35,799 nucleotides of DNA from a virus (Duplodnaviria; Caudoviricetes). Below the pieces are notes generated by a model. That model was not told the origin of the DNA and did no database searches. It worked only from the letters and a program-made list of their open reading frames with translations. The stretch covers positions 1-35,799 of IMG/VR virus record IMGVR_UViG_3300014202_001124; one strand, 5' to 3'. The position numbers were made by a program, and so were the translations under genes. Below, in pieces: positions 7,040 through 20,473 of the stretch (position 1 is its first letter; every line of letters starts with the position of its first letter).

Positions 7040-7137
7040 CCGTCGTTTTTCAACGGTTTCCTACCAAATCGTTATCAATCGGTAGAAAATTGGTATCTGA
7101 AAAAAAATCCAGAAGTCTCTTTTACAAAACTTCTGGA
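7038..7137. terminator. Cluster of three inverted repeats between convergent operons
   Basis: AACCGT/ACGGTT (7038-7058), CTACC-N15-GGTAG (7061-7085), TCCAGAAGT-N12-ACTTCTGGA (7108-7137). Confidence 0.45.
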
Positions 7138-7244
7138 CGGATGTTTGCATATGTACAATGGAGACCTGAAAAACATGTGTGCTCTTCAAGCGTACGCTCC
7201 AATATTACCCTTTGTGAGAGAAAGTGGAAACAAAAAAGTAGCCA

Positions 7245-7442
7245 TTAAAGTGTGTGAAATTGTTTCTTGCCAAGAGTTTTCGAATAGAGAATGGAAACCA
7301 CGTTCTCTTCAAACTTAATATTTATGATCAGATATTCCTTTCCAGAAAGAACGGCACAAGTCTGATCTAATTCGTTTTCAGACACAACCGCTTTATAGAT
7401 CTTGCACCCTGGTGGAATCCGGCTTAAAGGAGATGACATCAA
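7245..7442 (-). CDS. Small beta-alpha-beta-beta family protein (member 8)
   Basis: IYKAVVSENELDQTCAVLSGKEYLIINIKFEENVVSILYSK; stop/start overlap with the upstream gene. Confidence 0.7.
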   Translation of the reverse strand: MMSSPLSRIPPGCKIYKAVVSENELDQTCAVLSGKEYLIINIKFEENVVSILYSKTLGKKQFHTL

Positions 7443-7627
7443 TCATATCCTGTGAAGGCGTTCGACCTGTAAACCATCTCTACTGAGAATGTTTTTTCAT
7501 CCAATGGATGTTTAGAGACGACAACCCACCCTTGAGATGTTTTTAACTTTATCTCCTCTTCTGAAAGAGCGGTATTAAGAGTAAGACATGGGTCTCTAAA
7601 TGCTATTGGTGAACCAAGTGGCGTCAT
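7439..7627 (-). CDS. Small beta-alpha-beta-beta family protein (member 7; DUF4177/DUF1737-like pattern)
   Basis: LTLNTALSEEEIKLKTSQGWVVVSKHPLDEKTFSVEMVYR. Confidence 0.7.
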   Translation of the reverse strand: MTPLGSPIAFRDPCLTLNTALSEEEIKLKTSQGWVVVSKHPLDEKTFSVEMVYRSNAFTGYD

Positions 7628-7767
7628 TTCGCTGCCCAGTATTCATGTTCGCTTGAATAACAAGGAGGTTTTTTGGGTTTAATTTCCAAAACTTTGATGT
7701 CTATATCCCAATTTGAGTGTACAGAGCATCCCGAAAGCATTAATGCTATAAAAATAAGTGTTTTCAT
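7624..7767 (-). CDS. Small lipoprotein, 47 aa
   Basis: Below the ORF-track cutoff. MKTLIFIALMLSG|CSVHSNWDIDIKVLEIKPKKPPCYSSEHEYWAAK has a canonical LSGC lipobox; ATGA overlap with 7439..7627. Confidence 0.75.
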   Translation of the reverse strand: MKTLIFIALMLSGCSVHSNWDIDIKVLEIKPKKPPCYSSEHEYWAAK

Positions 7768-7800
7768 ATGCATTCATACTATCAAAATTCAGAATTTCAA

Positions 7801-16682: not shown

Positions 16683-16711
16683 ATTATGTGTTGAAACAAC
16701 CCTTAAGTCAA
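16683..16711 (-). promoter_or_regulatory. Sigma70-type promoter of the fibre operon
   Basis: TTGACT-N17-CATAAT with an AT-rich upstream element. Confidence 0.7.
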
Positions 16712-16735
16712 TTTTATTTTATTTATTAATCTGTA

Positions 16736-16771
16736 TTGACACTCAGCGACACCTTGTGACATGATGAGATC
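16736..16771 (+). promoter_or_regulatory. Promoter with 10-bp-phased GACA(C/T) repeats
   Basis: TTGACA-N18-CATGAT; GACAC 16738, GACAC 16748, GACAT 16758. Confidence 0.6.
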
Positions 16772-16981
16772 ATGGATCAAGAGCTGCTATCTGTTAAAGA
16801 TTTTGCTCTATTTGCAGGACTGCATTACAACACCGTTAGAAGAGCCATATTAAGCGGAAGGATTCAAGCAACAAATTATGGCCAAGGAAAAAGAAAGTTT
16901 TACAGAATCCACAAGAGTGAATTTCAAAGACTTGCCTTATTTGACATTAGACAAATTATGAAGAAAGGAGAAGAAAAGTGA
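16772..16981 (+). CDS. Excisionase-family HTH_17 DNA-binding protein
   Basis: LLSVKDFALFAGLHYNTVRRAILSGRIQA...G...FYRIHKSEF. Confidence 0.85.
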   Translation: MDQELLSVKDFALFAGLHYNTVRRAILSGRIQATNYGQGKRKFYRIHKSEFQRLALFDIRQIMKKGEEK

Positions 16982-17202
16982 CCATGAAAAGCTTCAGGAA
17001 AGGAGAGATGATCCGAGTTCCTGAAATGACACTATGCCCAGTCGAAAAGAAAGTTTGCATGACAGACGACCCCTATGAAGTAGTTGAGATCATCAATTTT
17101 GACAACTCAGAGTTCCTAAAGTGTTTTCTTTATGGATTCAATACGAGCCAAGACATTGGAAAGTTTGCTGTTTATCACGACGGAAGGATCAAAAGAGTTT
17201 AA
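16978..17202 (+). CDS. Hypothetical protein
   Basis: GTGA overlap; AAGGAG RBS. Confidence 0.7.
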   Translation: MTMKSFRKGEMIRVPEMTLCPVEKKVCMTDDPYEVVEIINFDNSEFLKCFLYGFNTSQDIGKFAVYHDGRIKRV

Positions 17203-17486
17203 TGTATCATCAAATGTCTAAAGAAGAGATGGATAAGTTTCTAACCGAAATGGGTAGAATGATCACTCTGAAGTGTTTAGACATTGCTCATCCCGGCGAT
17301 ATGTTTGCCGTTCACTATGAAATATGTGTGCTTCAAATAGCCCAAGTCTTCGCCTTTATGGATAAGATTGGGCTTTCTGGAGAGGCAAGGCAGGAAGTTC
17401 TAGAAGAAATGGTTACTCTAGCCTTAATCACACTAGACAATGTGAAAAAAAATACTACCTTTTTTCAGTCTTCTCAGGAGGACTAA
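17202..17486 (+). CDS. Hypothetical helical protein
   Basis: Start moved to MYHQMSKEE (TAATG coupling). Confidence 0.7.
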   Translation: MYHQMSKEEMDKFLTEMGRMITLKCLDIAHPGDMFAVHYEICVLQIAQVFAFMDKIGLSGEARQEVLEEMVTLALITLDNVKKNTTFFQSSQED

Positions 17487-17631
17487 AATCAGCTTCAAAT
17501 CCTGTTTTGTCCTTAAGAAGCTTTTCAGAGGCTTCCTCGATCATGTTATCTGGCCCAAGGAAGACCTGAGACAAAAATCCAAGAACAATCACAGATCCAA
17601 ACAAACCAATCATTACAACTGTTGAAGTCAT
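17455..17631 (-). CDS. Small single-pass membrane protein, 58 aa
   Basis: Below cutoff. AGGAGG RBS and ATGA overlap; MTSTVVMIGLFGSVIVLGFLSQVFLGPDNMIEEASEKLLKDKTGFEADFSPPEKTEKR. Confidence 0.8.
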   Translation of the reverse strand: MTSTVVMIGLFGSVIVLGFLSQVFLGPDNMIEEASEKLLKDKTGFEADFSPPEKTEKR

Positions 17632-17852
17632 ACCCCTCCTGAAACAAGAAACATATAATGAAAAAACACAAAAGTAACCAGGCTCAAGAGAGTATAAAGA
17701 AGACCCTCTTGAACCACATCTAGCTGTTCCTGAAGAACGAGTGGCTGCTTTTTTCTTCTACGCCAAATCTTTATAGCATATATAAAAAAAAAGATAATAG
17801 GTAACAGGAAACATATTTCCTTAAGTGGCAGATAACTAAACACTTGTCCCAT
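17628..17852 (-). CDS. Small two-TM membrane protein (holin-like topology)
   Basis: ICFLLPIIFFFIYAI-KIWRRRKK ... GLLYTLLSLVTFVFFHYMFLV; GAGGTG RBS before ATG 17852. Confidence 0.65.
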   Translation of the reverse strand: MGQVFSYLPLKEICFLLPIIFFFIYAIKIWRRRKKQPLVLQEQLDVVQEGLLYTLLSLVTFVFFHYMFLVSGGV

Positions 17853-18126
17853 TTTGAAACACCTCAAAAAATAGGTTATTTAGGTCGTTTTGCTGTATCT
17901 TTTTATACCTCATGATTCCGGCATCTTGAAAAGCGCCAAGTATGACAAAATTGCTTTTTTCAAGTTTTTTACGAACTTTTGACCACTTATCGACAGAGCA
18001 AGTATAACTTTTGAAAAACCATCTCTCATTTGTTCTCCCTTCCAGGATTCCTACGTTTTGTTGGAATTCTGGCAAAATAGCTTCTGGAATACTAGAGCTT
18101 TGGACACGTTCAAGTTTCATCTCCAC
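17836..18126 (-). CDS. Small beta-alpha-beta-beta family protein (member 6)
   Basis: FKSYTCSVDKWSKVRKKLEKSNFVILGAFQDAGIMRYKK. Confidence 0.65.
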   Translation of the reverse strand: MEMKLERVQSSSIPEAILPEFQQNVGILEGRTNERWFFKSYTCSVDKWSKVRKKLEKSNFVILGAFQDAGIMRYKKIQQNDLNNLFFEVFQNGTSV

Positions 18127-18316
18127 TTGTGTCTCCTGGTTGATGAATCATCTTAAAGGCGCTTGTTACCTTTTGATAGGTGAATATGACATTGTCTTCC
18201 CCATCTTTTGGTTCTTCGGTAGACAAGATCTTATAACCGTTTCTCTCCATGTCTAGTCGGTAGGAGAGAAAATGCTCTCTTGGACAAACTCCAGTTCTAA
18301 TTCCATTCATGATCAT
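18110..18316 (-). CDS. Small beta-alpha-beta-beta family protein (member 5)
   Basis: IRTGVCPREHFLSYRLDMERNGYKILSTEEPKDGEDNVIFTYQK. Confidence 0.72.
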   Translation of the reverse strand: MIMNGIRTGVCPREHFLSYRLDMERNGYKILSTEEPKDGEDNVIFTYQKVTSAFKMIHQPGDTSGDET

Positions 18317-18491
18317 CCTTTTGAGAAGATTATGTTGATTCCTTTTCCATTCACTACAATTTCTTCGATTCTCATTTTACCATCTTCGTCCTTTTCTGTT
18401 TTTTGATCTGGATCAACCACGTCGTATTAGGGATGGATTATTTTGATCATGCTATTATATGACTTGGCAACGAAGTTGCAAAGGAGGCCTT

Positions 18492-18779
18492 ATGGACCAA
18501 ACCAGCATAGTCATAAACATTTACATTACATCTGATAATGGTATTCCATCATCTGTTCCAATTGCACTTCCCCCAAACTCAAATGAACAAATTGTGACAA
18601 TCACAACAGTGCTCGCTCAAGAAGCTTTAAATAAGTTTCAGAAGGGTGAGAGATTTGTGATCACCAATACAGCAAAGGTGTCTAAGAAGATTCTGAAAAA
18701 GATTTTCACAGAAGCTATCCCAGGACTTACAGTAAAAGTCCTAAAGATAGGCTCTGTGATTCTTATGTCTGTTATCTAG
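18492..18779 (+). CDS. Hypothetical protein inserted antisense within the small-gene array
   Basis: AAGGAGG RBS before MDQTSIVINI; its stop overlaps the convergent 18776..18958. Confidence 0.75.
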   Translation: MDQTSIVINIYITSDNGIPSSVPIALPPNSNEQIVTITTVLAQEALNKFQKGERFVITNTAKVSKKILKKIFTEAIPGLTVKVLKIGSVILMSVI

Positions 18780-18958
18780 TCGTTTTGTGAATGCATAAGC
18801 TTAAGCTTTGCAGCCTCGTTTGCTTTCATATAGGTGATGCTAGCGCTATTTTTCCCGTAAAATGGATCAAGAACGGTATAGCCATTAGCTTTTAAGTCAG
18901 CAACCTTGGCTGCTACATCTTCTGGGGCAACGCTCACGCTATGAAGTCTTGGGATCAT
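18776..18958 (-). CDS. Small beta-alpha-beta-beta family protein (member 4)
   Basis: LHSVSVAPEDVAAKVADLKANGYTVLDPFYGKNSASITYMK; AAGGAG RBS. Confidence 0.78.
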   Translation of the reverse strand: MIPRLHSVSVAPEDVAAKVADLKANGYTVLDPFYGKNSASITYMKANEAAKLKLMHSQND

Positions 18959-19161
18959 AAATTCTCCTTGTTATTATTTAATTTTAAGCGAATAAGGTGG
19001 GCGTAAAGTTCCACCTCTTCAACCGTGAAAGAAAAACTGATACGATTTCCTTTCACTCTGATATTTCCAACTGTTCCTCCGGCCTCATTCAAGATGGAAT
19101 CGTAATACGATCCGAATTCTTTAGTCGAAACTTCGTAATGGAATACAGTTTTTATGGACAT
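18955..19161 (-). CDS. Small beta-alpha-beta-beta family protein (member 3, most divergent)
   Basis: VFHYEVSTKEFGSYYDSILNEAGGTVGNIRVKGNRISFSFT. Confidence 0.7.
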   Translation of the reverse strand: MSIKTVFHYEVSTKEFGSYYDSILNEAGGTVGNIRVKGNRISFSFTVEEVELYAHLIRLKLNNNKENL

Positions 19162-19163
19162 AT

Positions 19164-19493
19164 TCAGTTAACCATCACCCTCTGTTTCTTATCTGTGGAT
19201 ATCACCTTTCCCCAAGGATAGACATGGGTAAACTTCTTAACATCCTTAATATTAGTCGTGGTGTAGTGGATTAGCTCATCTTGTATATAAATAAGCTGAA
19301 GACCAGCATCTTTTCCACTGACAAGAGTTCCAATGTCTCCATTGCTGTACCAAGCGACATGCCAAGTCTCTCCTTCTGAGTCCACAAGATATTGAATATC
19401 ATAAGAGTAAAACTCATCAGAGGCTAAAAGGTAGGTCCAATTTAAGACCATGGCAATTATTAAGTATTTGCTTAAGTTTTTGACCATATCCAT
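19164..19493 (-). CDS. Putative exported beta-rich protein
   Basis: N-terminus MVKNLSKYLIIAMVLNWTYLLA|SDE resembles a Sec signal peptide. Confidence 0.7.
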   Translation of the reverse strand: MDMVKNLSKYLIIAMVLNWTYLLASDEFYSYDIQYLVDSEGETWHVAWYSNGDIGTLVSGKDAGLQLIYIQDELIHYTTTNIKDVKKFTHVYPWGKVISTDKKQRVMVN

Positions 19494-19500
19494 CCTTTAT

Positions 19501-19743
19501 TTAAAGATTTTCCTTTCTAAGCATATCGATTCTTCTGCAAGCCGGAAGATGAGCATTTCCTCTAGCAACGGGCTGCCTAGTACTCCAATAAGTAAAGTTT
19601 ACAAAACTTTCACCTTTATCGTTTTGGAAAATCGAATCAAGAGCTACTCCATAGCCATTTGATTGCAAACGGTTAACTTTTTCTTGAAATGCCTCTACGC
19701 TACAATGACTAAAAAATATTTCATTATTAAAATCAGTTTTCAC
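19501..19743 (-). CDS. Small beta-alpha-beta-beta family protein (member 2)
   Basis: IFFSHCSVEAFQEKVNRLQSNGYGVALDSIFQNDKGESFVNFTYW; AGGAG RBS before GTG. Confidence 0.75.
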   Translation of the reverse strand: MKTDFNNEIFFSHCSVEAFQEKVNRLQSNGYGVALDSIFQNDKGESFVNFTYWSTRQPVARGNAHLPACRRIDMLRKENL

Positions 19744-19751
19744 AATAACTC

Positions 19752-19952
19752 CTATAGATTTGCGTGTGATAAATTCTCCCTATATTTGTGTCTAAAAGAA
19801 GTTTGTGCAACCTTATCAAGTTTAATGTACGTGATGGTTGTTTGACCATCAACCGTCCAAGATCCCGTAACTGAACATCCGGCTCTTCCAAGTCGGTGAC
19901 GGATCTTTGTTTCTTCATGAGGAAAGCAAGTTAAACTTTTGATCATAAACAC
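19752..19952 (-). CDS. Small beta-alpha-beta-beta family protein (member 1)
   Basis: IKSLTCFPHEETKIRHRLGRAGCSVTGSWTVDGQTTITYIK. Confidence 0.7.
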   Translation of the reverse strand: MFMIKSLTCFPHEETKIRHRLGRAGCSVTGSWTVDGQTTITYIKLDKVAQTSFRHKYRENLSHANL

Positions 19953-20074
19953 CTTAAATTTTAGGGATGCAAAGAGATTAGCACAGAACTGGATTTATGG
20001 GAACTAAAAAGACTCCCATCAAAATTCCCAGATTTTCCAACTATTCGGAAATTCCTAAGAGTTCATTTCGCATA

Positions 20075-20473
20075 TCAAAAACGTATAGTTAAGAGGGTTT
20101 CTGGAGAGGATGAATATCTTTTTTCCATTGATATCTTGTAGATAAGGCCGTCATCTACCCAAACAAGCCCATTACAAACATCAAACATCTTGTACATGTT
20201 GTCTAGATCTGGTTTTTTTTGATGAGGAGCCATTTGTAGGCCTACAAGATTCTTCTTAGGCGTACTTTTTGGGATTGGCATTTTGAAAACAATGTCTAGC
20301 CAAATTGACTTCTTTATGAGCTCAAATCCTTTAGGAAGTTGAGACTGAATAGAGTGTTTATAGAATGCTTTTTCTTGTTTTTGGCTATCGTAAGTGCCAA
20401 ATTTAGAATATCTAGGCCTAAGCTTAGATATTGGGTTGCCTGGTATGACAAGTCTTAAGCTCGCGATAGCCAT
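20075..20473 (-). CDS. rusA: RusA family Holliday junction resolvase
   Basis: IPGNPISKLRPR, MPIPKS.PKK, HQKKPDLDNMYK..D..NGLVWVDDGLI, KRYS. Confidence 0.9.
   Translation of the reverse strand: MAIASLRLVIPGNPISKLRPRYSKFGTYDSQKQEKAFYKHSIQSQLPKGFELIKKSIWLDIVFKMPIPKSTPKKNLVGLQMAPHQKKPDLDNMYKMFDVCNGLVWVDDGLIYKISMEKRYSSSPETLLTIRF

What the first reader, a model, noticed from the sequence alone, without database searches (positions are those of the whole stretch)
17455..19952. Hidden family of eight highly divergent ~65-aa beta-alpha-beta-beta paralogs, arrayed with exported and membrane proteins
Seen: six minus-strand micro-ORFs here, plus two at 7245-7627, look unrelated at first but align on one pattern. 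The pattern is a strand ending C/V, then [S/P]-x-[E/D]-x, a ~11-residue amphipathic helix ending L-x-x-[N/Q/A]-G-[Y/W/C]-x-[V/I], a turn, and a final strand [I/F]-T-Y-x-K. Examples: SLTCFPHEETKIRHRLGRAGCSV...TITYIK (19752); FSHCSVEAFQEKVNRLQSNGYGV...VNFTYW (19501); HYEVSTKEFGSYYDSILNEAGGTV...ISFSF (18955); SVSVAPEDVAAKVADLKANGYTV...ASITYMK (18776); TGVCPREHFLSYRLDMERNGYKI...VIFTYQK (18110); SYTCSVDKWSKVRKKLEKSNFVI...IMRYKK (17836). A possible half-copy (18313-18420, GKMRIEEIVVNGKGINIIFSKG) is ATGA-coupled to the next member. The genes are tightly packed, several with overlapping stop/start codons, and interleaved with a signal-peptide protein (19164), a 2-TM protein (17628) and a 1-TM protein (17455). 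Known: the DUF4177/DUF1737 'L..L...GW.LV' pattern has this topology, and dodecin/YbjQ-like folds of similar topology oligomerise. Inference: this is a diversified multi-subunit system, such as a hetero-oligomeric ring or a panel of ligand sponges or host-factor inhibitors (anti-defence, superinfection exclusion, host takeover). It is the best candidate for an undescribed system in the window.
Basis: partly seen in the sequence, partly recalled or inferred. Interest (0 to 1): 0.85.

Follow-up and report, generated by a model that had tools for sequence, protein, structure and literature searches.

The report
Diverged tiny-protein family in phage cassettes
A probable chlamydial phage carries five clearly related, and up to eight same-shaped, tiny proteins of an unnamed family that recurs in small sets in related phages and in one chlamydial chromosome, and that likely acts as a set of host-binding modules.

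Summary
All ORFs exist at the stated places. Five (A 19752, B 19501, D 18776, E 18110, F 17836) form a real family: a profile built only from four outside homologues ranks them 1-4 and 8 among 23,058 ORFs. C (18955) has no measurable sequence link but is predicted to fold with the same strand-helix-strand-strand layout as E. G and H are marginal. The 'half-copy' is a 45-codon frame broken by an in-frame stop. E and H show a synonymous bias in a related strain. Homologues occur as 1-3 divergent copies in 6 of 66 related phage records, including a coupled trio whose three subtypes recur in a second phage. One firm unit lies in a three-gene array in the Estrella lausannensis chromosome, where units appear fused in pairs. 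No Pfam, PHROG, NCBIfam or PADLOC family fits; the profile leans weakly to DUF4177, not DUF1737. The fold is very common in small phage proteins. The exported and membrane neighbours are not shown to belong. Best reading: dispensable, non-enzymatic, paired binding modules aimed at host proteins (about 40%). No target is known.

The parts
19752..19946 (-). A, 64 aa, firm family member; RBS AAGGTG
   Evidence: (A-F z 5.8, A-D 4.6)
19501..19743 (-). B, 80 aa, firm member; GTG start with GGAG RBS
   Evidence: (E 0.005 from outside-only profile)
19164..19493 (-). 109-aa protein with N-terminal hydrophobic stretch (signal-peptide-like); neighbour, not shown to belong
   Evidence: one homologue in G025 (E 4e-6), a genome without a detected member
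18955..19161 (-). C, 68 aa; same predicted beta-alpha-beta-beta fold plus C-terminal helix, no measurable sequence link
   Evidence: fold; no profile link
18776..18958 (-). D, 60 aa, firm member; orthologue P0013 (39% identity); 4-nt overlap with C
18492..18779 (+). 95-aa plus-strand ORF with strong RBS, converging on D; interrupts the array; no family match
18454..18482 (-). sigma70-type promoter-like site (TTGCAA-16-TATAAT, 10 of 12) ahead of half-copy/E/F
   Evidence: 18 sites found against 10.2 expected; consensus match only
18313..18450 (-). 45-codon frame with in-frame TAA at codon 8: likely decayed copy, or a 20-aa coupled mini-ORF; 4-nt overlap with E
   Evidence: hhalign only 6 columns
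18110..18316 (-). E, 68 aa, firm member; orthologues P0008, P0009, P0012 (38-54%); confident AF2 core; 5 of 7 strain differences synonymous
17836..18120 (-). F, 94 aa with about 33-aa N-terminal extension, firm member; basic core (+8)
   Evidence: z 8.4 to the Estrella unit
17628..17852 (-). two-hydrophobic-segment protein; coding (3 of 3 differences synonymous); neighbour
17455..17631 (-). one-hydrophobic-segment protein; coding (5 of 5 differences synonymous); neighbour
7624..7773 (-). lipoprotein-like 49-aa ORF heading the second cassette
   Evidence: LPAM_1 E 0.03, under cut-off
7439..7627 (-). H, 62 aa, marginal member; coding (8 synonymous and 3 changed codons in a related strain)
7245..7442 (-). 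G, 64-65 aa, marginal member (D-G z 4.6; profile prob 3%)
7107..7138 (-). intrinsic-terminator-like hairpin (13 pairs + T run) closing the lipoprotein-H-G cassette

Best explanation
These are dispensable small phage proteins built on one roughly 45-residue unit predicted to fold as strand-helix-strand-strand, which likely pair up and bind host proteins, each diverged subtype likely aimed at a different target. Shown: five window genes share ancestry; E and H are under purifying selection; homologues are patchy and come in sets of 1-3 subtypes in related phages; the genes lie in small-ORF islands. Predicted: the unit is three quarters of a ferredoxin-like fold with an open sheet edge. Inferred: (1) the edge is filled by a second unit or by a target strand, as the apparently two-unit chlamydial genes suggest; (2) the genes are read from host-sigma promoters as early or moron-like cassettes; (3) there is no catalysis, since no column is invariant; (4) the targets are cytoplasmic host proteins (takeover or counter-defence) of a probable chlamydial host.
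For: Family: (window clade against relatives' set: prob 88.6%, E 2.6e-6). Fold; nearest solved matches are parts of ferredoxin-like domains (EF-G/BipA domain V, YigZ C-terminus, S6, ACT; Z <= 5.5 for E, <= 8.3 for C). No invariant column in 18 members. Patchy: 5 of 37 near-whole relatives and 1 of 29 further records, though their capsids are 78-87% identical. Subtypes kept apart: the G038 trio and G041 match gene for gene (z 26, 27, 8) while paralogues within a genome do not (z <= 2.4). In 6 of 6 relatives the members lie on the strand opposite the capsid gene, among small ORFs. Synonymous bias: 14 of 20 differences in E and H at third positions, p 9e-4. Estrella P0029 unit: hhalign 96%, E 3.5e-9, in a three-gene array of roughly 100-140-aa proteins.
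Against: No target, no expression data and no likeness to any known anti-defence or takeover protein. The second units of the Estrella genes are individually weak (prob 2-10%), so 'fused pairs' rests on length and pattern. Single-copy genomes exist (G012, G866), so pairing must then be homomeric or absent. In the window the main cluster lies inside the tail-gene region on the late strand. The fold is among the commonest in small viral proteins (at least 500 BFVD matches at E <= 10, none at E <= 0.001), so shape says little about function. The promoter sites are consensus matches only. The host is inferred.
Confidence: 0.4

Rival explanations
1. A five-gene expansion plus unrelated look-alikes: the fold is so simple and common in phage ORFans that C, G and H were gained separately, and the copies are a weakly selected birth-and-death pool without a shared role.
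For: C has no sequence link, G and H are marginal. At least 500 uncharacterised viral proteins share the fold. One copy looks decayed. 32 of 37 relatives have no detected member.
Against: Synonymous bias in E and H; orthologous subtypes kept in the same order in two phages; repeated multi-copy sets in four relatives.
Confidence: 0.22
2. Hetero-oligomeric ring: co-translated divergent subunits assemble into one dodecin-like or hexameric particle that binds a small ligand.
For: Coupled tandem paralogues in the window, G009 (pair) and G038 (trio); conserved trio in G038/G041; DUF1737 of like topology forms hexamers (10.64898/2026.04.10.717836, section 8 read); dodecin oligomers (recalled, and named in passages of PMC12222027).
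Against: Copy number 1 to 5-8 with different subtype sets; in G041 the trio is split by other genes; 4-nt overlaps are general in this genome; no conserved ligand-binding residues.
Confidence: 0.13
3. Capsid decoration: like the DUF1737 domain of podophage phi24B, the units form rings on hexons of the virion.
For: Same description of fold (one helix, three antiparallel strands) and a podovirus-like host phage; Atlas structural neighbour DUF1737 TM 0.61, under the naming bar; in the window the cluster sits among tail genes on the late strand.
Against: No profile link to DUF1737 (0.4%, 5 of 25 shuffles as good). In 6 of 6 relatives the genes are on the non-structural strand. Paralogues are too divergent to share a face for a capsid that is 85% conserved. 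A member lies in a chromosome with no gene of this phage within 20 kb.
Confidence: 0.1
4. Small nucleic-acid-binding regulators (KH-, S6- or Alba-like use of the sheet face) that tune phage or host expression.
For: Weak fold matches to KH, S6 and Alba domains; several cores are strongly basic (F +8, G038/G041 second subtype +8).
Against: B, D, E and their orthologues have neutral or slightly acidic cores; no KH GxxG-type motif in the alignment (motif recalled).
Confidence: 0.1
5. Antibacterial or toxic peptides, like the DUF4177 protein PEG 446.
For: Weak profile link to DUF4177 (46%); PEG 446 was reported as antibacterial (PMC11322243, passages read).
Against: One report on one distant member; no export signal on any member; an intracellular host offers few bacterial competitors (inference).
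Confidence: 0.05

Closest known systems
DUF4177 (PF13783)
   Same: Small stand-alone beta-alpha-beta-beta protein; helix ending in G-[WY]-x-[VIL] strand; best profile link (hhalign 46%, E 2e-4, above 25 of 25 shuffles); Atlas neighbour TM 0.60.
   Different: No member reaches the Pfam model. It lacks DUF4177's [WY]-E-Y-K first strand and long loop (alignment), and has a C/V-[S/P] helix entry and T-Y-x-K end instead.
DUF1737 (PF08410), capsid-decorating hexamer of phage phi24B
   Same: One helix and three antiparallel strands, about 50 aa, phage-borne (10.64898/2026.04.10.717836, section 8 and passages read).
   Different: No profile link (0.4%); not fused to an esterase; on the non-structural strand in relatives; multi-copy and divergent.
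SHS2 module (archease, dodecin, FlgP/FlgQ)
   Same: Strand-helix-strand-strand order; archease 1j5u Z 4.8, rmsd 3.1 over 50 residues. FlgQ is described as a two-unit repeat of FlgP (PMC12222027, passages read), a parallel to the apparent Estrella two-unit genes.
   Different: Z in the range of common arrangements; no dodecin among the listed rows; no sequence link.
Ferredoxin-like domains (EF-G/BipA domain V, YigZ C-terminal DUF1949, S6, ACT)
   Same: E and C models align to their first four or five elements.
   Different: The phage unit lacks the fourth strand (E also the second helix in its model); stand-alone; 5-20% identity.
T4-type internal head proteins (phrog_2667)
   Same: Small variable phage proteins; D and one relative hit at E 0.016-0.03.
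   Different: Only 2 of 18 members, not significant; a lead only.

Membership tests
DUF4177 (PF13783) | Score above Pfam gathering cut-off (25 bits) | tested here: not met
   No hit for any window member or outside homologue; six-frame search of the genome empty; profile from 17 fetched members gives at best 10.9 bits on a relative.
DUF4177 (PF13783) | Remote homology by profile-profile comparison | tested here: inconclusive
   46% probability, E 2e-4, 26 columns; 3.7% for the window clade alone.
DUF4177 (PF13783) | One helix on three antiparallel strands | tested here: met
   Predicted for E, C and D; predicted models only.
DUF1737 (PF08410) | Pfam score or profile link | tested here: not met
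   hhalign 0.4% against 11 fetched members.
DUF1737 (PF08410) | Hexamer bound to capsid hexons | not testable with these tools
   Needs virion proteomics or cryo-EM.
Dodecin / SHS2 | SHS2 topology | tested here: inconclusive
   Archease Z 4.8 only; dodecin not among listed rows.
Dodecin / SHS2 | Trimer/dodecamer assembly with flavin binding | not testable with these tools
   Needs an oligomer measurement; see Tried and rejected.
Spore_Cse60 (PF10957) | Pfam match | tested here: not met
Known defence or anti-defence proteins | Match to PADLOC, PHROG or NCBIfam models, or to solved inhibitors | tested here: not met
   (only weak methyltransferase hits for D, E >= 0.001); PDB sequence searches empty at E < 0.05. 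No dedicated anti-defence library was on hand.
This new family (A, B, D, E, F clade) | C, G and H recovered by an independent profile | tested here: inconclusive
   G and H marginal, C not recovered; C fold matches.

The most novel reading that the evidence does not exclude
All eight window genes, the coupled sets in related phages and the two-unit genes of Estrella are one combinatorial system: half-domains that pair in different combinations to make a panel of binders against the defences or core machinery of intracellular chlamydiae, and that a host chromosome has captured in fused form.
Probability: 0.12. Interest if true: 0.8.

Novelty: new variant of a known kind. Interest (0 to 1): 0.48.

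Why it matters
If the host inference holds, these are accessory genes of a large uncultured group of tailed phages (245 capsid relatives in IMG/VR, none among 50,697 deposited phage records) that would infect chlamydiae, bacteria living inside eukaryotic cells. A scaffold kept in up to 5-8 versions at 5-29% identity is what an arms race over host targets would leave. The members are tiny, soluble-looking and easy to express, and a cultured chlamydia carries homologues, so target pull-downs could open phage-host conflict in this phylum. If the rival holds, it is an ordinary expansion of a very common small fold.

Tried and rejected
Pfam, PHROGs, NCBIfam and PADLOC scans: no significant hit for any member. 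D alone found only itself among 5.8 billion proteins. The all-library profile search gave 17 rows: 5 window proteins, 4 true outside homologues, and 8 repeat-rich or unrelated rows that I dropped. Pattern scans with the E alignment: one false hit in a portal gene (L098) and nothing in metagenome contigs. The first six-row profile found 0 of 50 relatives, but five of those later proved positive, so absence counts are floors. L155:13441 was a false addition and was removed. G176 is antisense to a housekeeping gene: chance. The seven other Chlamydiota hits (E 4e-4 to 0.009) were not followed. No DNA repeats mark the copies. The A-upstream region does not fold better than shuffles (z -1.2). Complex prediction of three copies of E: no answer (score 0.01), no evidence either way. 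No RNA holder listed. DUF1737 against C, G, H did not finish. The tree resolves little: A, B, D, E, F and orthologues group at 90/89, unstarred, with C inside on a very long branch. Three look-ups of earlier findings were empty. Nine paper searches showed no description of this family or phage group; subscription papers and supplements were not seen.
Full report
Setting. The window is a linear IMG/VR virus record, about 90% complete. It has an N4-gp56-like capsid, a PBSX terminase, Bet and a lambda-type exonuclease. The capsid has 245 relatives among viral contigs; the best 80 are 78-87% identical. It has none among 50,697 deposited phage records. The host is inferred. Capsid relatives occur in 7 of 400 genomes of the phylum of a Chlamydiia-labelled record (best non-seed E 2e-69, 41%). 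In a control phylum, 5 of 401 matched, the four non-seed ones only at E >= 8e-7. The 14 genome-collection hits lay in bins of many phyla, so the host is probable, not shown.

Observation. All ORFs exist. I name them A (19752), B (19501), C (18955), D (18776), E (18110), F (17836), G (7245) and H (7439). Identities among the eight are 5-29%. Six of 45 pairs beat shuffles at <= 6/1000, all among A, B, D, E, F and G. A profile of six cores against 1.84 billion representatives gave 17 rows: 5 own, 4 small outside homologues (three E-like at 38-54%, one D-like at 39%), and 8 unrelated rows that I dropped. A profile of those four outsiders alone ranks E, D, B, F first and A eighth among 23,058 ORFs. 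So five are firm. G and H are marginal (hhalign 3% and 5%) and C is unlinked (0.2%). AlphaFold2 gives E a confident beta-alpha-beta-beta core. It gives C the same elements in register from a single sequence, plus a C-terminal helix. Their top-50 viral fold matches share 10 entries. The Atlas models of D and E fall among the same kind of neighbours. In contigs of a related strain, 5 of 7 differences in E are synonymous, and H has 8 synonymous against 3 changed codons, so both are coding and conserved. The half-copy is a 45-codon frame with an in-frame stop. A plus-strand 95-aa gene and a promoter-like site at 18482-18454 split the array. The lipoprotein-H-G unit runs against its neighbours and ends in a strong terminator-like hairpin.

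Relatives. I fetched 37 related genomes (first 40 kb of each) and searched 8,244 ORFs, with reversed ORFs as control. Members occur in 5 of 37: G009 three, G010 two (a third weak), G041 two, G038 one, G012 one. Most of these entered the profile after pairwise links, so their final scores are circular. The non-circular test is window clade against relatives' set: 88.6%, E 2.6e-6. One of 29 further records (G866) has a member. In G038 the member heads three genes joined by 4-nt overlaps. G041 has the same three subtypes in the same order, spaced apart; orthologues match at z 26, 27 and 8, paralogues at z <= 2.4. The second subtype links to the family only weakly (27%). In 6 of 6 relatives the genes lie on the strand opposite the capsid gene among small ORFs. 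No column is invariant in 18 members; the recurrent Cys before the helix is replaced by V, I, T, A or L, so it looks structural.

A cellular copy. Among 300 genomes of the probable host phylum, the best of 8 hits at E <= 0.01 is in G319. Its proteins are named Estrella lausannensis hypotheticals. The N-terminal unit of P0029 is a firm member (96%, E 3.5e-9; z 8.7 to P0008, 8.4 to F). It is the last of three adjacent genes of 110, 138 and 101 aa, each of which reads as two such units, though the other five units score only 2-10%. The neighbours are housekeeping and lineage-specific genes, with no match to this phage in 20 kb. No true homologue was found in 60 related genomes. This fits a captured orphan cluster and supports a chlamydial host.

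Mechanism. The unit matches the first part of ferredoxin-like domains and SHS2 modules at Z values typical of common arrangements. A three-stranded sheet with one helix leaves an edge or face open, and known proteins of this shape close it by oligomerising (established knowledge; phi24B hexamer, below). With no catalytic constellation, no export signal, patchy presence, conserved subtypes and extreme paralogue divergence, I favour non-enzymatic binding modules. They likely work in pairs, are likely made early or from their own cassettes, and each subtype would engage a different host protein (0.40). The target class is untested. Rivals: common-fold ORFan pool (0.22), obligate hetero-ring (0.13), capsid decoration (0.10), nucleic-acid binders (0.10), antibacterial peptides (0.05).

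Comparison with what is known. No Pfam, PHROG, NCBIfam or PADLOC family fits. The profile leans to DUF4177 (46%) and not to DUF1737 (0.4%) (profiles from 17 and 11 members fetched). DUF1737 is a hexameric capsid decoration in phi24B (bioRxiv 10.64898/2026.04.10.717836; abstract, passages and section 8 read; supplements closed). One DUF4177 protein was reported as antibacterial (PMC11322243; passages read). FlgP/FlgQ illustrate single and doubled SHS2 units (PMC12222027; passages read). PMC12487901 and PMC4333871 (term searches only) gave nothing relevant. The fold is very common among uncharacterised viral proteins (at least 500 matches each). Nine paper searches showed no account of this family.

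Verdict. A real, unnamed family of a known kind of small fold: five firm members, one fold-only, two marginal, one decayed. It recurs as small divergent sets in a probable chlamydial phage group and in one chlamydial chromosome. The membrane and exported neighbours are real genes but not shown to be part of it. Interest 0.48.

Noticed in passing
L227:673-1770 (G319:C12:293420-294517): Three adjacent Estrella lausannensis orphan genes, each apparently two fused units of this family; only the first unit of the third gene is firm.
   Followed up: partly
L153:18283-18904 (G038) and L061:1893-4371 (G041): Three divergent subtypes kept in the same order in two phages, coupled in one and spaced in the other.
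   Followed up: yes
L073, L075, L076, L078-L081 capsid genes; L074, L088, L093: Capsid matches span about 1170-1350 bases instead of 966, implying an insertion (intron or intein) in the major capsid gene.
   Followed up: no
window 18492-18779 (+): 95-aa plus-strand ORF with a strong RBS inside the minus-strand array; no family match; by eye its C-terminal half recalls a TusA/SirA-like pattern (recalled, untested).
   Followed up: no
window 16700-20473: An island (RusA, small ORFs, HTH_17 gene at 16772) interrupts the tail-gene region; in relative L083 the matching place holds other genes, one resembling the ORF cut at the window's left end.
   Followed up: partly
whole window; L003-L082: A large group of about 40-kb podovirus-like phages with 78-87% identical capsids, absent from deposited phage records, probably infecting Chlamydiota.
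   Followed up: partly
L017:9187-9765; L061:5478-6101: Some relatives carry an outer-membrane-beta-barrel-like gene just upstream of the capsid gene (by eye).
   Followed up: no
L235:1174-7525: Three tandem paralogous genes of about 650-690 aa next to the Estrella array.
   Followed up: no
L102:13964-14590 (G003): Two small ORFs with a partial family-like pattern, scoring at noise level.
   Followed up: partly
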